A DNA stretch of 57,168 nucleotides from a virus (taxonomy: Duplodnaviria > Heunggongvirae > Uroviricota > Caudoviricetes): the IMG/VR virus record IMGVR_UViG_2537561944_000042. One strand, written 5' to 3'. Both the position numbers and the translations under genes were made by a program. Under the pieces are notes generated by a model, which ran no database searches, had not been told where the DNA came from, and saw nothing but the letters and a program-made list of their open reading frames with translations. Below are positions 4,195 to 35,259 of the stretch, piece by piece (within the stretch, counting starts at the first letter, position 1; every line of letters begins with the position of its first letter).

Positions 4195-5766
4195 TTACTG
4201 AGAGCTCAGATCAACTTTCCAGGGCAACAGATCGCGTACCCGGTTTGCCGGCCAGTCCTGGATATGTTCAATGACGTAACGCAGCCACTTTTCTGGCTCC
4301 ACATTGTTCAGACGGCATGTGCCGATCAGCGAGTACAACACCGCCGCATGTTCACCACCGCTGTCGGAACCCGCGAACATCCAGTTTTTCCGGCCTACGG
4401 CCACTCCCCGTAAGGCGTTCTCTGCGATGTTGTTGTCGATTTCCACCCAGCCATTACTGCAGTACACGTTCAGTGCATCCCACTGTTTCAGCAGGTATGC
4501 GAACGCTTTTGCCGTATCTGAGTGACGCGACAGTGTTTTCATCTGTTGCTGTATCCAGTCATACAGTGACTGCATCAGTGGCGCGGCTCTGGCTTTTCTT
4601 GCCGCCAGACGCTGTTCTGCTGAACAGCCCCGGACCTCTGCCTCGATGGCATACAGTTCACCGATACGCTGCAGGGCTTCCGTGGTGATGTAGGTGGGCG
4701 CTCTTGCATGCACATCGTGGATTTTTCTCCGGGCATGAGCCATACACGCGGCTTCCGTTATTCTGCCGGATTCGTATAACGCCCGGTAACCACCGTAAGC
4801 ATCGGCCTGAAGCACACCGCTGTAACCGGCCAGGTGATTTTGTGGATGGATACCTTTCCGGTCCGGACTGTACGCGAACCAGACCGCCGGGGGCATCTGT
4901 GAACCGGCGTTACGGTCATCACGGACGTAGACCCACAGCCGGGCTGTCCGGGTTTTACCGCTGCCCGGCTCCTGGACCGGGACGGGGATATCATCAGCAT
5001 GGACTTTACCGGGCATCAGCACATACTGGCGCAGGACGTCATACAGCGGCTCCAGCAGTTCAGCAACAGCACCTGTCCAGCGCCCCAGTGTGGCACGGCT
5101 CAGCTCCACTCCCTGACGACGGTATATTTCTGACTGGCGGTATAACGGCAGATGGTCTGCATATTTCCCGGTGACAACATGGGCCAGAAGCCCCGCTCCG
5201 GCATAACTGCGTGCAATGGGTTTTGAAGGTACTGGTGCCTGCACGATATGGTCGCACCGGCAACAGGCCTGTTTCGGACGTTGTGTTTCGATAACCTTAA
5301 AGGCGCTGCTGATAAGCTCCAGTTGCTCTGACACATCACATCCCAGAGAACTGAGTTCACCACCACAGGCAGGACAGCATTCCTCTTCCGGCCGGATAAC
5401 CCGGGTTTCACGGGGAAGTGAGGCCGGTAACGGTTTACGGGCTGAAGACTGGCGCAGGGCGGATGGCAGTACCGGGTCATATTGCTCACCCAGCGTTTCC
5501 GCCATTTCTTCCTGAAGTGCGCTGATTCGCTCCTGTGCTTCCTGTATCTGCCGTTCGGTTTTTGCACGAAGTTTTTCTGAGCTTTTACCGAACTGCATAC
5601 GTTGCAGTTTCGCAACCAGCGCCTTCAGCCGGTTGATTTCGGAAGCATAAGCCGCCACCCGCTGTGAGAGCAGGCGGTTGTATTCAGCCATCTGGCGGAT
5701 GGTGTCCTGTTGCGTCTGCAACAGTGCCCGCAGGCGGGCGTTCTCATGAGCAAGTGAGGTGTCCAT
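4195..5766 (-). CDS. tnpC: IS66-family transposase TnpC (orf3)
   Basis: 523-aa ORF with N-terminal coiled coil, Cys-rich zinc-ribbon (CPACGG...CRCDH) and conserved IS66 transposase core. Confidence 0.9.
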
Positions 5767-22075: not shown

Positions 22076-22164
22076 ATGTTTGTTCTCAGAATGGGCATGG
22101 CCCAAGGAAATAACGCTGATTTAATACTTCAGTCTTTGCCGCATTTAAAAATACGCGAACACCT

Positions 22165-22350
22165 TCACGATCTCCCTTCTGGCGATACATTAACGCCTGC
22201 TGCGTGTACATGCGTCTCTGTAACTTGCTCTCCTTCACTGTGGTTGCAAGTGACATGAATATCTCCTTCGTTACCGATTAATTCTTTCATCTGACGAATG
22301 AATTCTTCGTCTGACCAGTTATCTGTGAAACTCATTTCCTGCGATACCAC
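22165..22350 (-). CDS. hypothetical small early protein
   Basis: 61-aa ORF. Confidence 0.3.
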   Translation of the reverse strand: MVSQEMSFTDNWSDEEFIRQMKELIGNEGDIHVTCNHSEGEQVTETHVHAAGVNVSPEGRS

Positions 22351-22484
22351 GGAAGGTTGATAGCTGATTTCATCGCTTTATTTGCTTCAAGCCACATTTT
22401 TGAATCACCAATAAATCTGGCTATTACTGCTTTGTTTTGTGCCGCACGAAGCATCTGGTGATTAATGGCTATTTCATTGCGCAT
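22335..22484 (-). CDS. small early protein with FIGD motif (possible Kil-like); below the ORF-track size cutoff
   Basis: Hand-translated 49-aa ORF MRNEIAINHQMLRAAQNKAVIARFIGDSKMW...; assignment is weak. Confidence 0.25.
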
Positions 22485-22678
22485 AACGCCTCCAGTTGTT
22501 TCTTTGCTGCTCTAATTAATTGTTTAACTCGGCGTGATAATTCAGATTCGTGCGGGTAGAAAGCGGACATGACGCCGCTACCCGCGAGCTGAAAGTGCAT
22601 CATGGGTAACTCCTTATATTTGATTGCATAACGAAAACGCCTCGAGTGAAGCGTTATTGGTATGCGGTAAAGCCGCGC

Positions 22679-23044
22679 TTAGGCGGCTGATGTTTCTTCT
22701 TTCAGGCTTTCGAGATATTTACGTGGGTCGTCGTAACATTGGCATTCGCTGTACCAATCCACCCAGCGATCAGTAAGCCCCACCTCTGATAAATCTTCAT
22801 CGGTAAGGCTCTCATCCCACATCTCAAGGCCGTTAGCATTGCAGTAATCAGGCTTGATGTTGTTGTCATACTGAAAGGCGTCATAATCAGCCAGTGCGCC
22901 CATCAGGCGAACACCCTCTTCAACACTTGCCACTTCTGCAATGAACGGTTTCATAGGTACTTGCGGGATATGCCAGACACGTAATTTCATATTTCCTCCG
23001 TCAAAAAAATCGCCCTCACATTGGAGGGCAAAGAAGATTTCCAA
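22679..23044 (-). CDS. hypothetical phage early protein
   Basis: 121-aa ORF; likely start at internal MKLRVWHIPQ. Confidence 0.4.
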   Translation of the reverse strand: MEIFFALQCEGDFFDGGNMKLRVWHIPQVPMKPFIAEVASVEEGVRLMGALADYDAFQYDNNIKPDYCNANGLEMWDESLTDEDLSEVGLTDRWVDWYSECQCYDDPRKYLESLKEETSAA

Positions 23045-23804: not shown

Positions 23805-24299
23805 ATGGATGTGTTATCTGGTATAACTGCCGCGAAACAGGCTTATGATCTGCTGAAGACAATAAAAGAAACCAGAGACGATGCTGTTATCGCTAAAGCT
23901 ATTGGTGATCTACACCAAAGAATAACTGACTTACAGATGCTTAATGCGGAGCTCTCTGGCCTTTATCAGGCCGAGAAGGAGATCGCAATGAAGCTTCGAG
24001 ATGAAAATAGAAAAATCAAGATGTTTGTTGTGCAAGCTGAGAATTATGAACTTCATACAACTGAAGGTGGTTCTGTCGTGTATCGACCTAAGAGTCATTC
24101 CGATCCTTCTATTCAGCAGCATAACCTTTGTGCACATTGCTTCGGCGAACATAAAATATCGATACTTCAACCAAGCACGGTTACTATAAAATCTAATGGG
24201 TTCTTTGTGCATTCATGTCCTCGCTGTAAGAATGAATACCGGATGTATAGAGCGCCAGACCCTAAGCCTGTATATGTACCGCCGCTGACAAATTATTAA
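23805..24299 (+). CDS. hypothetical protein with C-terminal zinc-ribbon-like CxxC...CxxC, encoded antisense to the early-left operon
   Basis: 164-aa ORF on the opposite strand; CAHCFGEH and CPRCKNE motifs; AT-rich. Confidence 0.5.
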   Translation: MDVLSGITAAKQAYDLLKTIKETRDDAVIAKAIGDLHQRITDLQMLNAELSGLYQAEKEIAMKLRDENRKIKMFVVQAENYELHTTEGGSVVYRPKSHSDPSIQQHNLCAHCFGEHKISILQPSTVTIKSNGFFVHSCPRCKNEYRMYRAPDPKPVYVPPLTNY

Positions 24300-24329: not shown

Positions 24330-24776
24330 TTACTTTGTCAGGGGGATATCTCCTTCAGTTTTGACCATTCGCCTTAATACTTTCCTTAAGTCGATGTAAA
24401 GTTGAAGGTCTCCATTTGCTGCGGCATCAGCCATTTTTTGCCTGACAAGCAGTAATGTTTCATACGGCTCAATAAGAATATCGTCATGAGTAATTAGGTG
24501 AAGCGTTGCCGCATCAACTATTCCTAGAGCTGCGCCAAGTATCAAAAATTCCCTGCTATTTTTGTCGCATGAGGAGATAAGCGTATTTAGCGCATACCTA
24601 ATATTCTTTATAGCTGTTGTTAATGCTGCAATTTCTTCTATGGCGTCTTCTCCAATGAGCTTTTTAAGCTCATATTTTTCTTCCTGACCCATAATTACCT
24701 CGCCGTCAGTTGTTTTGATTTCCGGTAGCCTGCCGCGTAAATGGCTACGTTTGGCAGGCAAATACTTCCACTGCAT
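24330..24776 (-). CDS. hypothetical phage early protein
   Basis: 148-aa ORF. Confidence 0.45.
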   Translation of the reverse strand: MQWKYLPAKRSHLRGRLPEIKTTDGEVIMGQEEKYELKKLIGEDAIEEIAALTTAIKNIRYALNTLISSCDKNSREFLILGAALGIVDAATLHLITHDDILIEPYETLLLVRQKMADAAANGDLQLYIDLRKVLRRMVKTEGDIPLTK

Positions 24777-24967
24777 TCATCTGCCTTCTTGCAGCGAAGG
24801 CTTCCGAGTGATGCTGCTTTATCTGCTCTGACGCAACCAGAGAGCTTTAGCGCAATTTTTCGTGCCAATCGCTGTTCTTGCATTGCCTGTTCACGTTGAG
24901 CCTGTCTGCGTGCTCTGCGGCGATTTCTGGCGTTATCGTCAGCCAGATATGTAATGACTACTGTCAT
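24695..24967 (-). CDS. putative N-like antitermination protein (arginine-rich motif)
   Basis: 90-aa ORF beginning MTVVITYLADDNARNRRRARRQAQREQAM...; first gene leftward of the immunity region. Confidence 0.4.
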   Translation of the reverse strand: MTVVITYLADDNARNRRRARRQAQREQAMQEQRLARKIALKLSGCVRADKAASLGSLRCKKADECSGSICLPNVAIYAAGYRKSKQLTAR

Positions 24968-25400
24968 GTTGACCTCCGATGATTGACTTTGGCGGTGACG
25001 CGCCGCGTGCTTATCTTCCGGTTGCCGTCTTGCAGCTGCACTTCACGTCACCCCAAAGCCAACTACTCTTTGGTTCCCGCATTTCGGCGGGACAATCCCA
25101 TCAATGTTAAAGAGCCTGCCAATCTGTTCCGTTTGGCTTCCAGCGTCCTGCTGATGGCTTAAAGATAACTTAGGTTATAGGTGTGGTCAATAACCTAATT
25201 TATATTTTATGGTGAATAGGTTATAAGTGATGGATAACAAAGGTATTTTATTTTTGTAAATGTTGCTGATTGATTGGTGTTTGAGGGCTTGCGTGCGGGG
25301 TGAAGGTGTTACCTTTGGCTTGATGCTTGTCTATGATGAGGATGGTTGATTGGGTGGTGAACGGCAGGAAAAGAAAACCCGGCGCTGAGGCCGGGTGTTT

Positions 25401-25697
25401 TTAGTCTTTTCTTTTGCTTAGCATTTCGTCGATTTCTAAGTCAATACGATATTGATCTATTGCTTTTCTCTCGTTTGGGGTTGGTATTTTATACTGTTCA
25501 ATTAGATCTGTTGTGTATTTTATTTCATCTAATGTGATTTTTATATCAGAGAGAATCTCTTTTATATCAATTATATGCTCTTCTTCTTTTGCACGATTAG
25601 AGCTATGTTCAATCATTTGAGATAGCTTTTTACTAATGCTTAGCAAAACAAAAAGAATGATGACCAAAACAACAACAAAAACTATCAGAAATTCCAT
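25401..25697 (-). CDS. small single-pass membrane protein in the rex/sieB position between N and repressor
   Basis: 98-aa ORF; N-terminal TM helix FLIVFVVVLVIILFVLLSI; very AT-rich. Confidence 0.5.
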   Translation of the reverse strand: MEFLIVFVVVLVIILFVLLSISKKLSQMIEHSSNRAKEEEHIIDIKEILSDIKITLDEIKYTTDLIEQYKIPTPNERKAIDQYRIDLEIDEMLSKRKD

Positions 25698-25737
25698 TAT
25701 CCCTCCGCACTTCCGTAAGTCTTCTTCTGATTATCGG

Positions 25738-26445
25738 TTACCAACTATGAGACGACCAGAATACTCTGCCAATAATCCTTACGGTTTCATGAAATTCATC
25801 TCTATCCATTACTTCATCCGGGTACTCTTCGCGATTTATTGATCTGATTATCACCGATGTAGGGGTGGCGATTAATGTTTTTACTCGTAACAAATCAGAC
25901 TGGCAAATAGCGTAGGTTTTACCATCTCTGATTGTGGTATCTTGCGTGTTAACACCAACAACATCGCCATCGTGAAGCGTTGGTTCCATGCTTTGCCCTA
26001 CAACCCTAACTAGCTTGGCTGATCTTTCAGATACTCCCATCTTTTTCAGATAGTGCTTTCTGAAAACCAAAGAGAACTCCGATGATTCCTCTAGCTCGCA
26101 GCTACCGCTTCCAGCTGAAAGCGAAACGTTAAGAAGAGGCAACGCAACAAACTCGTCATCGTTTCTTTTAATGTCTTCCCATACCACAGCTTTTAAAGAT
26201 GAATCACGGACATTGGATGGTTCTTCATGTGCACCATCCCTCATTTCACCAATACCAGAACTAAGCCATTCAGGGCGCACTTTTAAAGCATTGGCTAATT
26301 CAACCATCTTGCGAGATCCGTTTGTTTTACCGGACGACATCTTCTGTATGGCTGGCTGAGATATTCCAACCATGTCAGCAAGCTGTGATTGTGATACCCC
26401 TGCTGAGCTCATGGCTGCATTTAGTCTTTCTGCGAATGTTTTCAT
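25738..26445 (-). CDS. CI-like phage repressor (HTH_XRE plus LexA/S24 peptidase domain)
   Basis: HTH LADMVGISQPAIQKM; S24 motif GQSMEPTLHDGDVV; ATG at 26445 (track start at 26475 is TTG); divergent to cro. Confidence 0.85.
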   Translation of the reverse strand: MKTFAERLNAAMSSAGVSQSQLADMVGISQPAIQKMSSGKTNGSRKMVELANALKVRPEWLSSGIGEMRDGAHEEPSNVRDSSLKAVVWEDIKRNDDEFVALPLLNVSLSAGSGSCELEESSEFSLVFRKHYLKKMGVSERSAKLVRVVGQSMEPTLHDGDVVGVNTQDTTIRDGKTYAICQSDLLRVKTLIATPTSVIIRSINREEYPDEVMDRDEFHETVRIIGRVFWSSHSW

Positions 26446-26556
26446 ACCCACAAATCTATAACTACGGTTATCCAAAGTAAAATAACAAAGGTTATTGCTA
26501 TTTTTTATAACTTGAGTTATCTTTGGTTATAAGTAATGACCACAAGAGGTATGCTC
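26446..26556. promoter_or_regulatory. repressor-cro intergenic operator/promoter region (OR-like)
   Basis: Divergent cI and cro starts; repeated TTAT(N)CCAAAG / CTTTGGTTAT half-site-like motifs. Confidence 0.4.
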
Positions 26557-26781
26557 ATGAATTTAGTAATTCAACGAGCCTTGAAAATTGTCGGTAGCCA
26601 AAAGCGCCTTGCCGACAAGTGTGGTGTAACGCAGCCAGCAGTACACAAATGGCTGAAAGGCGGGTTGGTCTCTCCAGAGAAAGTTACCGCCATCGTTAAC
26701 GCCACTGGAGGGCAGATCAAGGCTTACGAAATTCGCCCCGATTTGCCACACCTGTTTCCAAAACCGAATCAGGCAGCATAA
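26557..26781 (+). CDS. Cro-like HTH regulator
   Basis: 74 aa from ATG at 26557 (AAGAGG RBS 6 nt upstream); HTH KRLADKCGVTQPAVHKW. Confidence 0.7.
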   Translation: MNLVIQRALKIVGSQKRLADKCGVTQPAVHKWLKGGLVSPEKVTAIVNATGGQIKAYEIRPDLPHLFPKPNQAA

Positions 26782-34143: not shown

Positions 34144-34499
34144 AACAGGTAAGAGCATTCTCCCTTATGGGGCTTGGCTTAAATGCACCGAGTGCTCTTA
34201 TCGTTGTGGCAGCACAACGATAGTTTTCGTCAGAGTTGGCGACTTTGCGGTTTTTTAGAAACTGACCACAAAGATAAATGCAAACGATGATGTTGTTCTG
34301 ATGGCGGCGTAATAGCCTGTAAGTCAGCAAGGTCTTCCGACTCCTTGTAAACAAATTCGGCGCACTGGCCCGGTGTGATTAATAATGGGCACACAACAGG
34401 TAAGAGCATTAAAGAACTGGCAAAGAGCTTAACGGTCTGCGAAAGCATTTCTTAGTGGCACAACTGGCCGGTACAACTGAGTGCTCTTTCCGGTGTGGT
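34144..34499. repeat. imperfect direct repeat in the Q-S leader: AACAGGTAAGAGCATT ... GAGTGCTCTT(A/T)(T/C)CG(T/G)TGTGG at 34144..34209 and 34395..34499
   Basis: Both 16-mer and 20-mer blocks occur twice, ~250 bp apart. Confidence 0.4.
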
Positions 34500-34935
34500 G
34501 AATGCGCAGGCTGATGCGCGCAGGAGAGCTTCGGAAGAACAAGGTGCCTGTATACAAGCCGGAGATCAGCGCCGGCCACCACAGCCAAATCCACCCAGAG
34601 CAAAACCGTTGTTCATCCTTACCATTCACTCAGTATTTTGGGCTACACCATCAGCCCATTTTTTAAAGCGTACTTCCACCAAGAACCAGACCTAACCAAC
34701 TCATTGCTGACACTCTGTGGATACGGTTGTCTAGTACGCTTTAAAAAAGAAAACCCAGCATCAATGGCTGGGCTTCGTGATATGAGCGGCATGTATTGTT
34801 GGCGCAATCCACGCCTGATTTGCTCATGAATGCGGTCACGAACAAACCCGTTACAAATCAACCGTAACCCGGATTTGTTCAAGCGACCATATCCATAATT
34901 CCTAATTTGAACAGATCCCCTTCTGGGGGTAAGAC

Positions 34936-35259
34936 ATGAAGATGCCAGAAAAACATGACCTGTTAGCCGCTATTCTCGCGGCAAAGGAACAAGGCATCGG
35001 GGCAATCCTTGCGTTTGCAATGGCGTACCTTCGCGGCAGATATAATGGCGGTGCGTTTACAAAAACAGTAATCGACGCAACGATGTGTGCCATTATCGCC
35101 TGGTTCATTCGTGACCTTCTCGACTTCGCCGGACTAAGTAGCAATCTCGCTTATATAACGAGCGTGTTCATCGGCTACATCGGTACTGACTCGATTGGTT
35201 CGCTTATCAAACGCTTCGCTGCTAAAAAAGCCGGAGTAGAAGATGGTGGAAATCAATAA
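34936..35259 (+). CDS. S: holin S (class I, dual-start MKM)
   Basis: 107-aa ORF essentially identical to lambda S as recalled; three TM segments. Confidence 0.9.

What the first reader, a model, noticed from the sequence alone, without database searches (positions are those of the whole stretch)
25401..25697. Small AT-rich single-TM protein in the rex/sieB slot between N and the repressor
This slot in lambdoid immunity regions typically holds lysogen-expressed exclusion or abortive-infection genes. Here it holds a 98-aa protein with one N-terminal TM helix and a charged coiled-coil tail, unlike RexA/RexB or SieB in architecture as I recall them.
Basis: partly seen in the sequence, partly recalled or inferred. 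Interest (0 to 1): 0.5.

Follow-up and report, generated by a model that had tools for sequence, protein, structure and literature searches.

The report
Unknown small membrane gene behind prophage repressor
A real, conserved 98-residue membrane-anchored protein of unknown function is encoded directly behind the repressor gene of this Shiga-toxin prophage, which makes it a reasonable but unproven candidate for a protein that keeps other phages out.

Summary
Window 25401-25697 (-) is a genuine gene with a Shine-Dalgarno site, a strong terminator right after the stop and dN/dS about 0.15. It encodes one very hydrophobic N-terminal helix and a charged helical tail. It lies 40 nt downstream of a cI-type repressor and upstream of OL/PL and N, which is the rexAB position. 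The window matches an E. coli O26-type Stx1a prophage.

The family is tiny: 14 representatives among 1.8 billion proteins. It has no Pfam, NCBIfam, PADLOC or structural match (PHROG 18389, unknown function). It is unrelated to RexA, RexB or SieB.

In 41 of 41 enterobacterial loci it sits 1-97 nt (1-44 nt in the 40 intact copies) behind a repressor, across at least 7 repressor types that it does not co-vary with. It moves as a promoterless cassette of ribosome-binding site, ORF and terminator. Sister prophages with the same repressor carry other cargo in this slot, including the PADLOC candidate PDC-S43.

Charge asymmetry in 17 of 17 members predicts N-out/C-in, so the conserved hairpin is cytoplasmic. 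Lysogen co-expression with cI is well supported by the layout. An exclusion function is only inferred from position. Verdict: a new member of a known kind, of moderate interest.

The parts
25401..25697 (-). 98-aa ORF. Residues 3-21 form a transmembrane anchor, 23-43 a variable linker, and 44-98 a conserved helix-YK(I/L)P-helix hairpin.
   Evidence: ORF list; hydropathy; AlphaFold2 helices; full-length match to PHROG 18389, E = 6e-62; dN/dS 0.15.
25701..25706 (-). Shine-Dalgarno site GGAGGG. DNA homology with the Citrobacter cassettes begins here.
   Evidence: Sequence; alignment A3, where homology starts at CGGAG.
25698..25737 (-). 40-nt spacer between the cI stop and the ORF start. It contains no terminator.
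   Evidence: Terminator scan found none here. The equivalent gap is 1-44 nt in the other intact loci and 97 nt in the truncated copy L038.
25368..25396 (-). Intrinsic terminator that ends the repressor operon (7-bp GC-rich stem plus U-tract). It also looks like a terminator on the + strand.
   Evidence: Scan; fold at -19.8 kcal/mol, z = -3.9; conserved in 34 loci; homology with the Citrobacter loci ends just after it.
25738..26445 (-). cI-type repressor (HTH_3 plus Peptidase_S24), the presumed promoter-proximal gene of the operon.
   Evidence: Pfam and PHROG. PGAP places the start at the ATG equivalent to 26445, giving 235 aa.
25165..25203 (.). OL operators (ATAAC-N4-GTTAT, two copies), marking the left edge of the slot.
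   Evidence: Pattern search found 6 matches against 1.7 expected, five of them clustered at OL and OR.
26458..26520 (.). OR operators (three copies) between cI and cro.
   Evidence: the cro-like gene at 26536..26781 is identified.
24695..24967 (-). N-type antiterminator, the first gene of the PL operon.
   Evidence: Pfam N_peptide, E = 1e-15; phrog_271.

Best explanation
The gene is a promoterless cargo cassette (ribosome-binding site, ORF, terminator) lodged in the repressor operon. It is therefore made together with cI from the maintenance promoter in lysogens; this is inferred from the layout.

The product is a single-pass inner-membrane protein with its N-terminus outside and its C-terminus inside. 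The hydrophobic helix is only an anchor. A flexible linker of variable length holds a conserved, probably self-associating helix-turn-helix hairpin (IKY[TV]TD-IEKYKLP-ER-ID-IRID-EI) at the cytoplasmic face of the membrane.

I propose that the hairpin binds a conserved partner there. The partner would be either a host inner-membrane or membrane-proximal protein, or a conserved component of incoming phages. The proposed payoff is exclusion of heteroimmune phages at DNA entry or an early intracellular step, acting as a one-gene occupant of the rexAB slot.

The operon context, the topology and the domain layout come from the sequence. The partner and the exclusion phenotype are inference.
For: - Position: all 41 enterobacterial loci have the gene 1-97 nt (1-44 nt in the 40 intact copies) downstream of a 219-244 aa cI-type repressor and before N.
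- Independence from the repressor: at least 7 repressor types are involved. Family identity does not track repressor identity; window versus L003 is 78% against 25%.
- Cassette limits: DNA homology runs from the Shine-Dalgarno site to the terminator and no further. No promoter was found above chance.
- Hotspot: the same cI (99%), OL and terminator occur with other cargo in L049. A 93.5%-identical cI is followed by a DUF3024 protein that matches the PADLOC candidate PDC-S43. HK97 has gp48/gp49 in this slot.
- Literature: this slot holds rexAB, bstA and hex, all expressed with the repressor.
- Topology: 17 of 17 family members have no K/R before the transmembrane segment and 1-4 K/R in the 15 residues after it.
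- Composition and selection: 29% GC, typical of acquired cargo, and purifying selection.
Against: - No homology to any defence or exclusion family in PADLOC, PHROGs, Pfam or NCBIfam, and no informative structural neighbour.
- The cytoplasmic domain is very conserved (dN 0.078), unlike many phage-sensing proteins.
- The transmembrane helix has no polar residues, so a Rex-like pore is unlikely.
- Members at 29-33% identity lie in non-prophage contexts, for example a Pelagicoccus contig, or next to a sigma-54 activator.
- No expression or phenotype data exist. Only 1 of 50,697 phage records carries the family, and no paper mentions the protein accession.
Confidence: 0.4

Rival explanations
1. A lysogenic-conversion or host-physiology factor with no role against phages. 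The membrane-tethered hairpin would bind a conserved host protein and change an envelope, transport or stress function that benefits the lysogen.
For: The C-terminal domain is strongly conserved across E. coli, Citrobacter and metagenomic prophages, which suggests a conserved host partner. Distant homologues occur outside prophages. Weak architecture-level matches are only to families of unknown function with a transmembrane segment plus coiled coil, DUF4446 and DUF948.
Against: The strict linkage to the repressor operon across at least 7 immunity types has its best-studied precedents in exclusion genes. The family is rare and patchy, present in 98 of 5426 E. coli genomes.
Confidence: 0.22
2. 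A modulator of the lysis-lysogeny switch, analogous to Hex of phage 434. It would stabilise lysogeny or tune induction, for example by acting on RecA-mediated repressor cleavage or on a membrane protease such as FtsH.
For: It has the same operon position as hex, which both excludes P22 and blocks RecA-stimulated cleavage of the 434 repressor. Membrane tethering would suit an interaction with FtsH/HflKC; this last point rests on my own knowledge and was not tested.
Against: The family does not co-vary with the repressor. Proteins 78-96% identical sit behind repressors with unrelated N- and C-terminal domains (19-31% identity). By contrast, sHex did not inhibit cleavage of a 434 repressor carrying a hypercleavable linker, of lambda repressor, or of LexA. 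The phage also has its own CIII-like ORF at 22469..22603, which I identified by eye only.
Confidence: 0.13
3. A small membrane toxin or selfish passenger. It could be an addiction-type or abortive pore-former that depolarises the membrane when over-produced, or a near-neutral hitch-hiker that persists because it brings the operon terminator.
For: It is a small, hydrophobic, AT-rich gene that moves as a compact cassette with its own terminator.
Against: The transmembrane helix lacks the polar or charged residues usual in pore-forming peptides. Selection acts mainly on the soluble hairpin: C-terminal dN is 0.078, against 0.33 in the linker. No antisense RNA or antitoxin partner was detected. The terminator also occurs with other cargo.
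Confidence: 0.1

Closest known systems
Lambda RexA/RexB
   Same: Same slot between the cI stop and OL/PL. It is said to be transcribed with the repressor. One component is membrane-embedded.
   Different: Rex has two genes, RexA (279 aa) and RexB (144 aa). From my own knowledge, not tested here, RexA is soluble and RexB spans the membrane several times. Here there is one 98-aa single-pass protein. There is no sequence relationship: hhalign probability is 1.5% and 0.5%.
BstA of Salmonella prophage BTP1
   Same: A single gene directly downstream of cI, presumed to share its promoter, followed by its own Rho-independent terminator, and found behind diverse repressors (PMC8585504).
   Different: BstA localises to sites of phage DNA replication and carries a self-immunity DNA element called aba. 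From my own knowledge, not tested here, BstA is a larger soluble protein. The present protein gave no significant PADLOC match (best hit a ZorB/MotB model, E = 0.017). I did not confirm that PADLOC 2.0 contains a BstA model. No aba-like element was looked for.
Hex of phage 434
   Same: PRM-cI-hex operon. Hex is a lysogen-expressed accessory protein behind the repressor with an exclusion phenotype against P22 (PMC3564112).
   Different: Hex is a 158-aa protein that was purified as a soluble fusion and acts on the 434 repressor specifically. The present family is membrane-anchored and independent of repressor type. No direct sequence comparison was made.
Small membrane superinfection-exclusion proteins (T4 Imm/Sp, HK97 gp15, lactococcal Sie2009, P22 SieA)
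   Same: Small, prophage- or phage-encoded inner-membrane proteins that block entry of other phages. Sie2009 also sits next to the repressor. These statements rest on my own knowledge.
   Different: There is no HMM-level similarity to any annotated exclusion PHROG. The predicted C-in topology leaves only about 2 residues in the periplasm, so periplasmic or receptor-level blocking is excluded here.

Membership tests
RexAB abortive-infection system | Sequence homology to RexA or RexB | tested here: not met
   hhalign of family profile A4 against lambda RexB gave 1.5% probability and against RexA 0.5%.
RexAB abortive-infection system | Two-gene system: a RexA-type gene plus a separate RexB-type membrane gene | tested here: not met
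   There is a single 98-aa ORF with one transmembrane segment between cI and the terminator. It is a single gene in all related loci, although some have an unrelated convergent phrog_3975 gene.
RexAB abortive-infection system | Located downstream of cI within the repressor transcription unit | tested here: met
   40 nt after the cI stop, no intervening terminator, and a terminator after the ORF. Transcription itself was not measured.
SieB | Sequence homology to lambda/P22 SieB, and a position to the left of N on the opposite strand | tested here: not met
   hhalign probability is 0.3%. Lambda sieB lies at 34482-35036, to the left of N, whereas this gene lies to the right of N on the cI strand.
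BstA | Homology to BstA defence models | tested here: inconclusive
   The PADLOC scan returned only an insignificant ZorB/MotB match (E = 0.017). I did not confirm that PADLOC 2.0 contains a BstA model.
Hex (phage 434) | Accessory protein specific to its cognate repressor | tested here: not met
   Family identity is uncoupled from repressor identity, for example 78% against 25%. Sequence homology to Hex was not tested because no Hex sequence was at hand.
Moron (Hendrix-type autonomous cargo unit) | Own promoter and own terminator, with composition different from the flanks | tested here: inconclusive
   The terminator and the deviant GC content (29% against 43-46%) are present. No promoter belongs to the cassette: homology starts at the Shine-Dalgarno site, and the only promoter-like hit lies inside cI at chance level.
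Type I toxin or holin-like small membrane toxins | Short peptide (usually under 60 aa) with a polar or charged transmembrane segment and an antisense RNA or dual-start regulation | tested here: not met
   The protein is 98 aa. Selection falls on the soluble domain. The transmembrane segment has no charged residues. No RNA family or antisense promoter was found.
PHROG 18389 | Full-length HMM match | tested here: met
   E = 6.4e-62, covering residues 1-98 of 98. The family is annotated 'unknown function'.

The most novel reading that the evidence does not exclude
The family is a one-polypeptide equivalent of Rex. In this reading it is a repressor-operon-specific abortive-infection or entry-block protein. 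Its membrane-tethered cytoplasmic hairpin recognises a conserved feature of incoming lambdoid or other phages, or the host channel they use for DNA entry. It would be a new defence family carried by clinically important Stx1 prophages.
Probability: 0.2. Interest if true: 0.6.

Novelty: new member of a known kind. Interest (0 to 1): 0.36.

Why it matters
If it excludes phages, it would add a minimal single-gene system to the cargo of the cI-N hotspot. It would also be a factor shaping which phages can superinfect O26 and other Shiga-toxin-producing E. coli lysogens, and so affect how Stx phages spread and compete. The strict synteny with at least seven unrelated repressors makes it an easy, well-defined candidate for a defence screen. 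If it instead modulates host physiology or induction, it could influence Stx1 prophage stability. In either case it is currently annotated only as a hypothetical protein.

Tried and rejected
- A genome-contig scan with the family alignment confirmed no locus. The wider alignment A4 was too diverse for the search for related loci.
- Plasmid searches found only a 1.4-Mb record labelled as a plasmid.
- Searches of the phage collection with three distant members found only the same single Stx1a phage record.
- I considered an RNA element rather than a protein and rejected it. There is no Rfam hit above noise, and dN/dS is 0.15 with a conserved Shine-Dalgarno site.
- I checked two papers and set them aside as unrelated. 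The svsR sRNA lies inside the 3' end of cI in a different prophage. The 'bully phage' effect is due to Cro.
- A search for the protein accession in the literature found nothing.

Full report
**What is there**

It begins at the first possible start codon, 3 nt after a GGAGGG Shine-Dalgarno site at 25701-25706. It ends 4 nt before a strong intrinsic terminator, whose stem-loop is at 25377-25396 and is followed by a U-tract. The terminator folds at -19.8 kcal/mol with z = -3.9 against shuffles.

The gene is 29% GC, against 46% for the window and 43% for the adjacent repressor gene. Residues 3-21 form a single very hydrophobic segment with a mean Kyte-Doolittle score of 3.67, and there is no second one. 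The remaining 76 residues include 14 K/R and 18 D/E. AlphaFold2 predicts helices 2-38, 45-68 and 74-96, at mean pLDDT 81 and pTM 0.29.

**Surroundings**

Forty nucleotides upstream on the same strand is a cI-type repressor with HTH_3 and Peptidase_S24 domains (25738..26445). Beyond it lie cro-, cII-, O- and DnaB-like genes. Downstream of the terminator lie two ATAAC-N4-GTTAT operators (OL, 25165-25203) and an N-type antiterminator (24695..24967). Three more operators (OR, 26458-26520) sit between cI and cro.

The gene therefore occupies the position of rexAB in lambda. Lambda sieB lies on the other side of N, so 'rex/sieB slot' is slightly inaccurate.

The window matches an E. coli O26-type Stx1a prophage. 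It is 99.8% identical to the Stx1a-converting phage record LC744178 and 100% identical over the tested stretch to strain RM10386. In RM10386 the gene is annotated 'hypothetical protein' WP_000394868.1. The 611-bp stretch that contains the gene is present in 98 of 5426 complete E. coli genomes.

**It is a real gene in a very small family**

The protein matches PHROG 18389 (unknown function) over its full length. It matches nothing meaningful in Pfam, NCBIfam or PADLOC.

A word-indexed search of 5.8 billion proteins found 11 clusters, from E. coli and Citrobacter. An exhaustive profile search of 1.84 billion representatives found only 14 with E at or below 0.001.

Against the Citrobacter homologues (72-78% protein identity), dN/dS is 0.15-0.17. 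The C-terminal 56 residues are the most constrained (dN 0.078) and the linker the least (dN 0.33).

Across 17 members down to 24% identity, the shared features are:
- an N-terminal hydrophobic helix;
- a linker of variable length;
- the motif IKY[TV]TD-IE-KYKLP-x3-ER-x2-ID-x2-RID-EI, with Y69, P72, D81 and E88 invariant.

**A mobile cassette that stays behind repressors**

In every enterobacterial locus recovered (41 of 41), the gene lies downstream of a 219-244 aa cI-type repressor and upstream of an N gene. The gap is 1-44 nt in the 40 intact copies and 97 nt in one truncated copy.

These repressors fall into at least seven sequence types. Family identity is uncoupled from repressor identity: window versus L003 is 78% against 25%, and L003 versus L005 is 96% with repressor N-terminal domains only 19% identical.

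At the DNA level, similarity between the window and the Citrobacter loci begins at the Shine-Dalgarno site and stops just after the terminator. The unit is therefore about 340 bp comprising ribosome-binding site, ORF and terminator, without a promoter. The only promoter-like hit nearby lies inside cI and is at chance frequency. Together with the absence of a terminator between cI and the ORF, this argues that the gene is transcribed with the repressor. This is inferred, not measured.

**The slot is a cargo hotspot**

- Prophages with a 99%-identical cI, the same OL and the same terminator carry two unrelated small genes instead (L049).
- A 93.5%-identical cI is followed by a DUF3024 protein that matches the PADLOC defence candidate PDC-S43 at E = 7e-42 (L044).
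- HK97 has gp48/gp49 in this position.
- Owen et al. describe the cI-N region as a hotspot of mosaic diversity. They note that it holds rexAB in lambda and bstA in BTP1, presumably sharing the repressor promoter (PMC8585504).
- Phage 434 has hex in a PRM-cI-hex operon (PMC3564112).

**Topology and what it excludes**

All 17 family members have no K or R before the hydrophobic segment and 1-4 K/R in the 15 residues after it. By the positive-inside rule (established knowledge), the protein is N-out/C-in, which leaves about two residues in the periplasm.

Any activity must therefore take place within the inner membrane or at its cytoplasmic face. Receptor masking and periplasmic mechanisms of the T4 Sp or Cor type are excluded. 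The helix has no polar or charged residues, and only its hydrophobicity is conserved across the family. It therefore looks like an anchor rather than a channel.

**Comparison with known systems**

The closest analogies are functional and positional, not evolutionary:
- RexAB, for slot and operon;
- BstA, as a single gene with its own terminator behind diverse repressors;
- Hex, as an accessory protein of the repressor operon.

**Most likely mechanism, and doubts**

I favour, at about 0.4, a lysogen-expressed, membrane-tethered protein whose cytoplasmic hairpin binds a conserved partner at the inner membrane. The selective payoff would be exclusion of other phages at DNA entry or an early intracellular step.

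Several points count against this:
- there is no homology to any defence protein;
- the hairpin is under strong purifying selection, which fits a conserved host partner better than an arms race with phage proteins;
- the most distant members (29-33% identity) are found in non-prophage contexts, namely a Pelagicoccus contig, beside a sigma-54 activator, and beside a SHOCT protein and an IS200 transposase.

The rivals are:
- a phage-unrelated lysogenic-conversion factor (0.22);
- a Hex-like modulator of the switch (0.13), disfavoured because the family is independent of repressor type;
- a small toxin or selfish passenger (0.10).

No paper mentions the protein accession. Only one of 50,697 phage records carries any family member, so nothing experimental is known.

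**Verdict**

This is an uncharacterised cargo family in a known hotspot: a new member of a known kind, a good and cheap candidate for a defence screen, but not surprising to a specialist. Interest is 0.36.

Noticed in passing
window 23805-24299 (+): A 164-aa ORF (phrog_1244, unknown function) with a coiled-coil-like N-terminal half and two CxxC pairs near the C-terminus. It is transcribed against the surrounding PL operon, as lambda sieB is. It could be a second lysogen-expressed cargo gene. It has no significant Pfam or PADLOC hit and no NCBIfam hit.
   Followed up: partly
window 22679-23044 (-): This ORF matches phrog_1510, annotated 'superinfection exclusion' (E = 8e-56). PGAP calls the equivalent gene in RM10386 'superinfection exclusion protein'. 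The prophage therefore already carries a nominal exclusion gene in the PL operon.
   Followed up: partly
window 25247-25376: A spacer of about 130 bp between the terminator and OL is strongly G/T-rich on the + strand (GC skew +0.34 to +0.56). On the repressor-operon strand it is therefore C/A-rich and G-poor, which resembles a Rho-utilisation tract. It travels with OL and the terminator in L049, where the cargo is different.
   Followed up: no
L003 6324-6530, L005 6324-6548, L048 4733-4960 (all -): In the Citrobacter-type loci a 68-75 aa gene (phrog_3975, unknown function) lies convergent to the family gene, immediately after the shared terminator. It is absent from the window.
   Followed up: partly
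L044 2122-2463 (-); L049 2767-3272 (-): The same or a near-identical repressor is followed by other cargo. L044 has a DUF3024 protein matching the PADLOC candidate PDC-S43. L049 has a 120-aa phrog_13858 protein plus a 42-aa ORF.
   Followed up: partly
window 25377-25396: The operon terminator scores as a terminator on both strands. It appears to be the recombination joint: it is shared both with cassettes behind other repressors and with other cargo in front of the same OL.
   Followed up: partly
window 26445-26475: The mechanical ORF call for cI starts at a TTG at 26475, which overlaps the operator at 26458-26471. The PGAP start, the ATG equivalent to 26445 giving 235 aa, is more likely.
   Followed up: partly
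L001 1974-3130 compared with window ~22100-22330: Strain RM10386 has an IS600 insertion in the PL operon between the erf-side genes and kil. The window lacks it, as shown by a coordinate offset of about 1.27 kb.
   Followed up: no
L045 (Pelagicoccus sp., Verrucomicrobiota) 5001-5351; L046; L047: Family members at 29-33% identity keep the KYKLP-ER-D motif but sit in non-prophage neighbourhoods: next to an acetyltransferase, a SHOCT protein with an IS200 transposase, and a sigma-54 activator. The C-terminal hairpin may therefore be an older domain of general use.
   Followed up: partly
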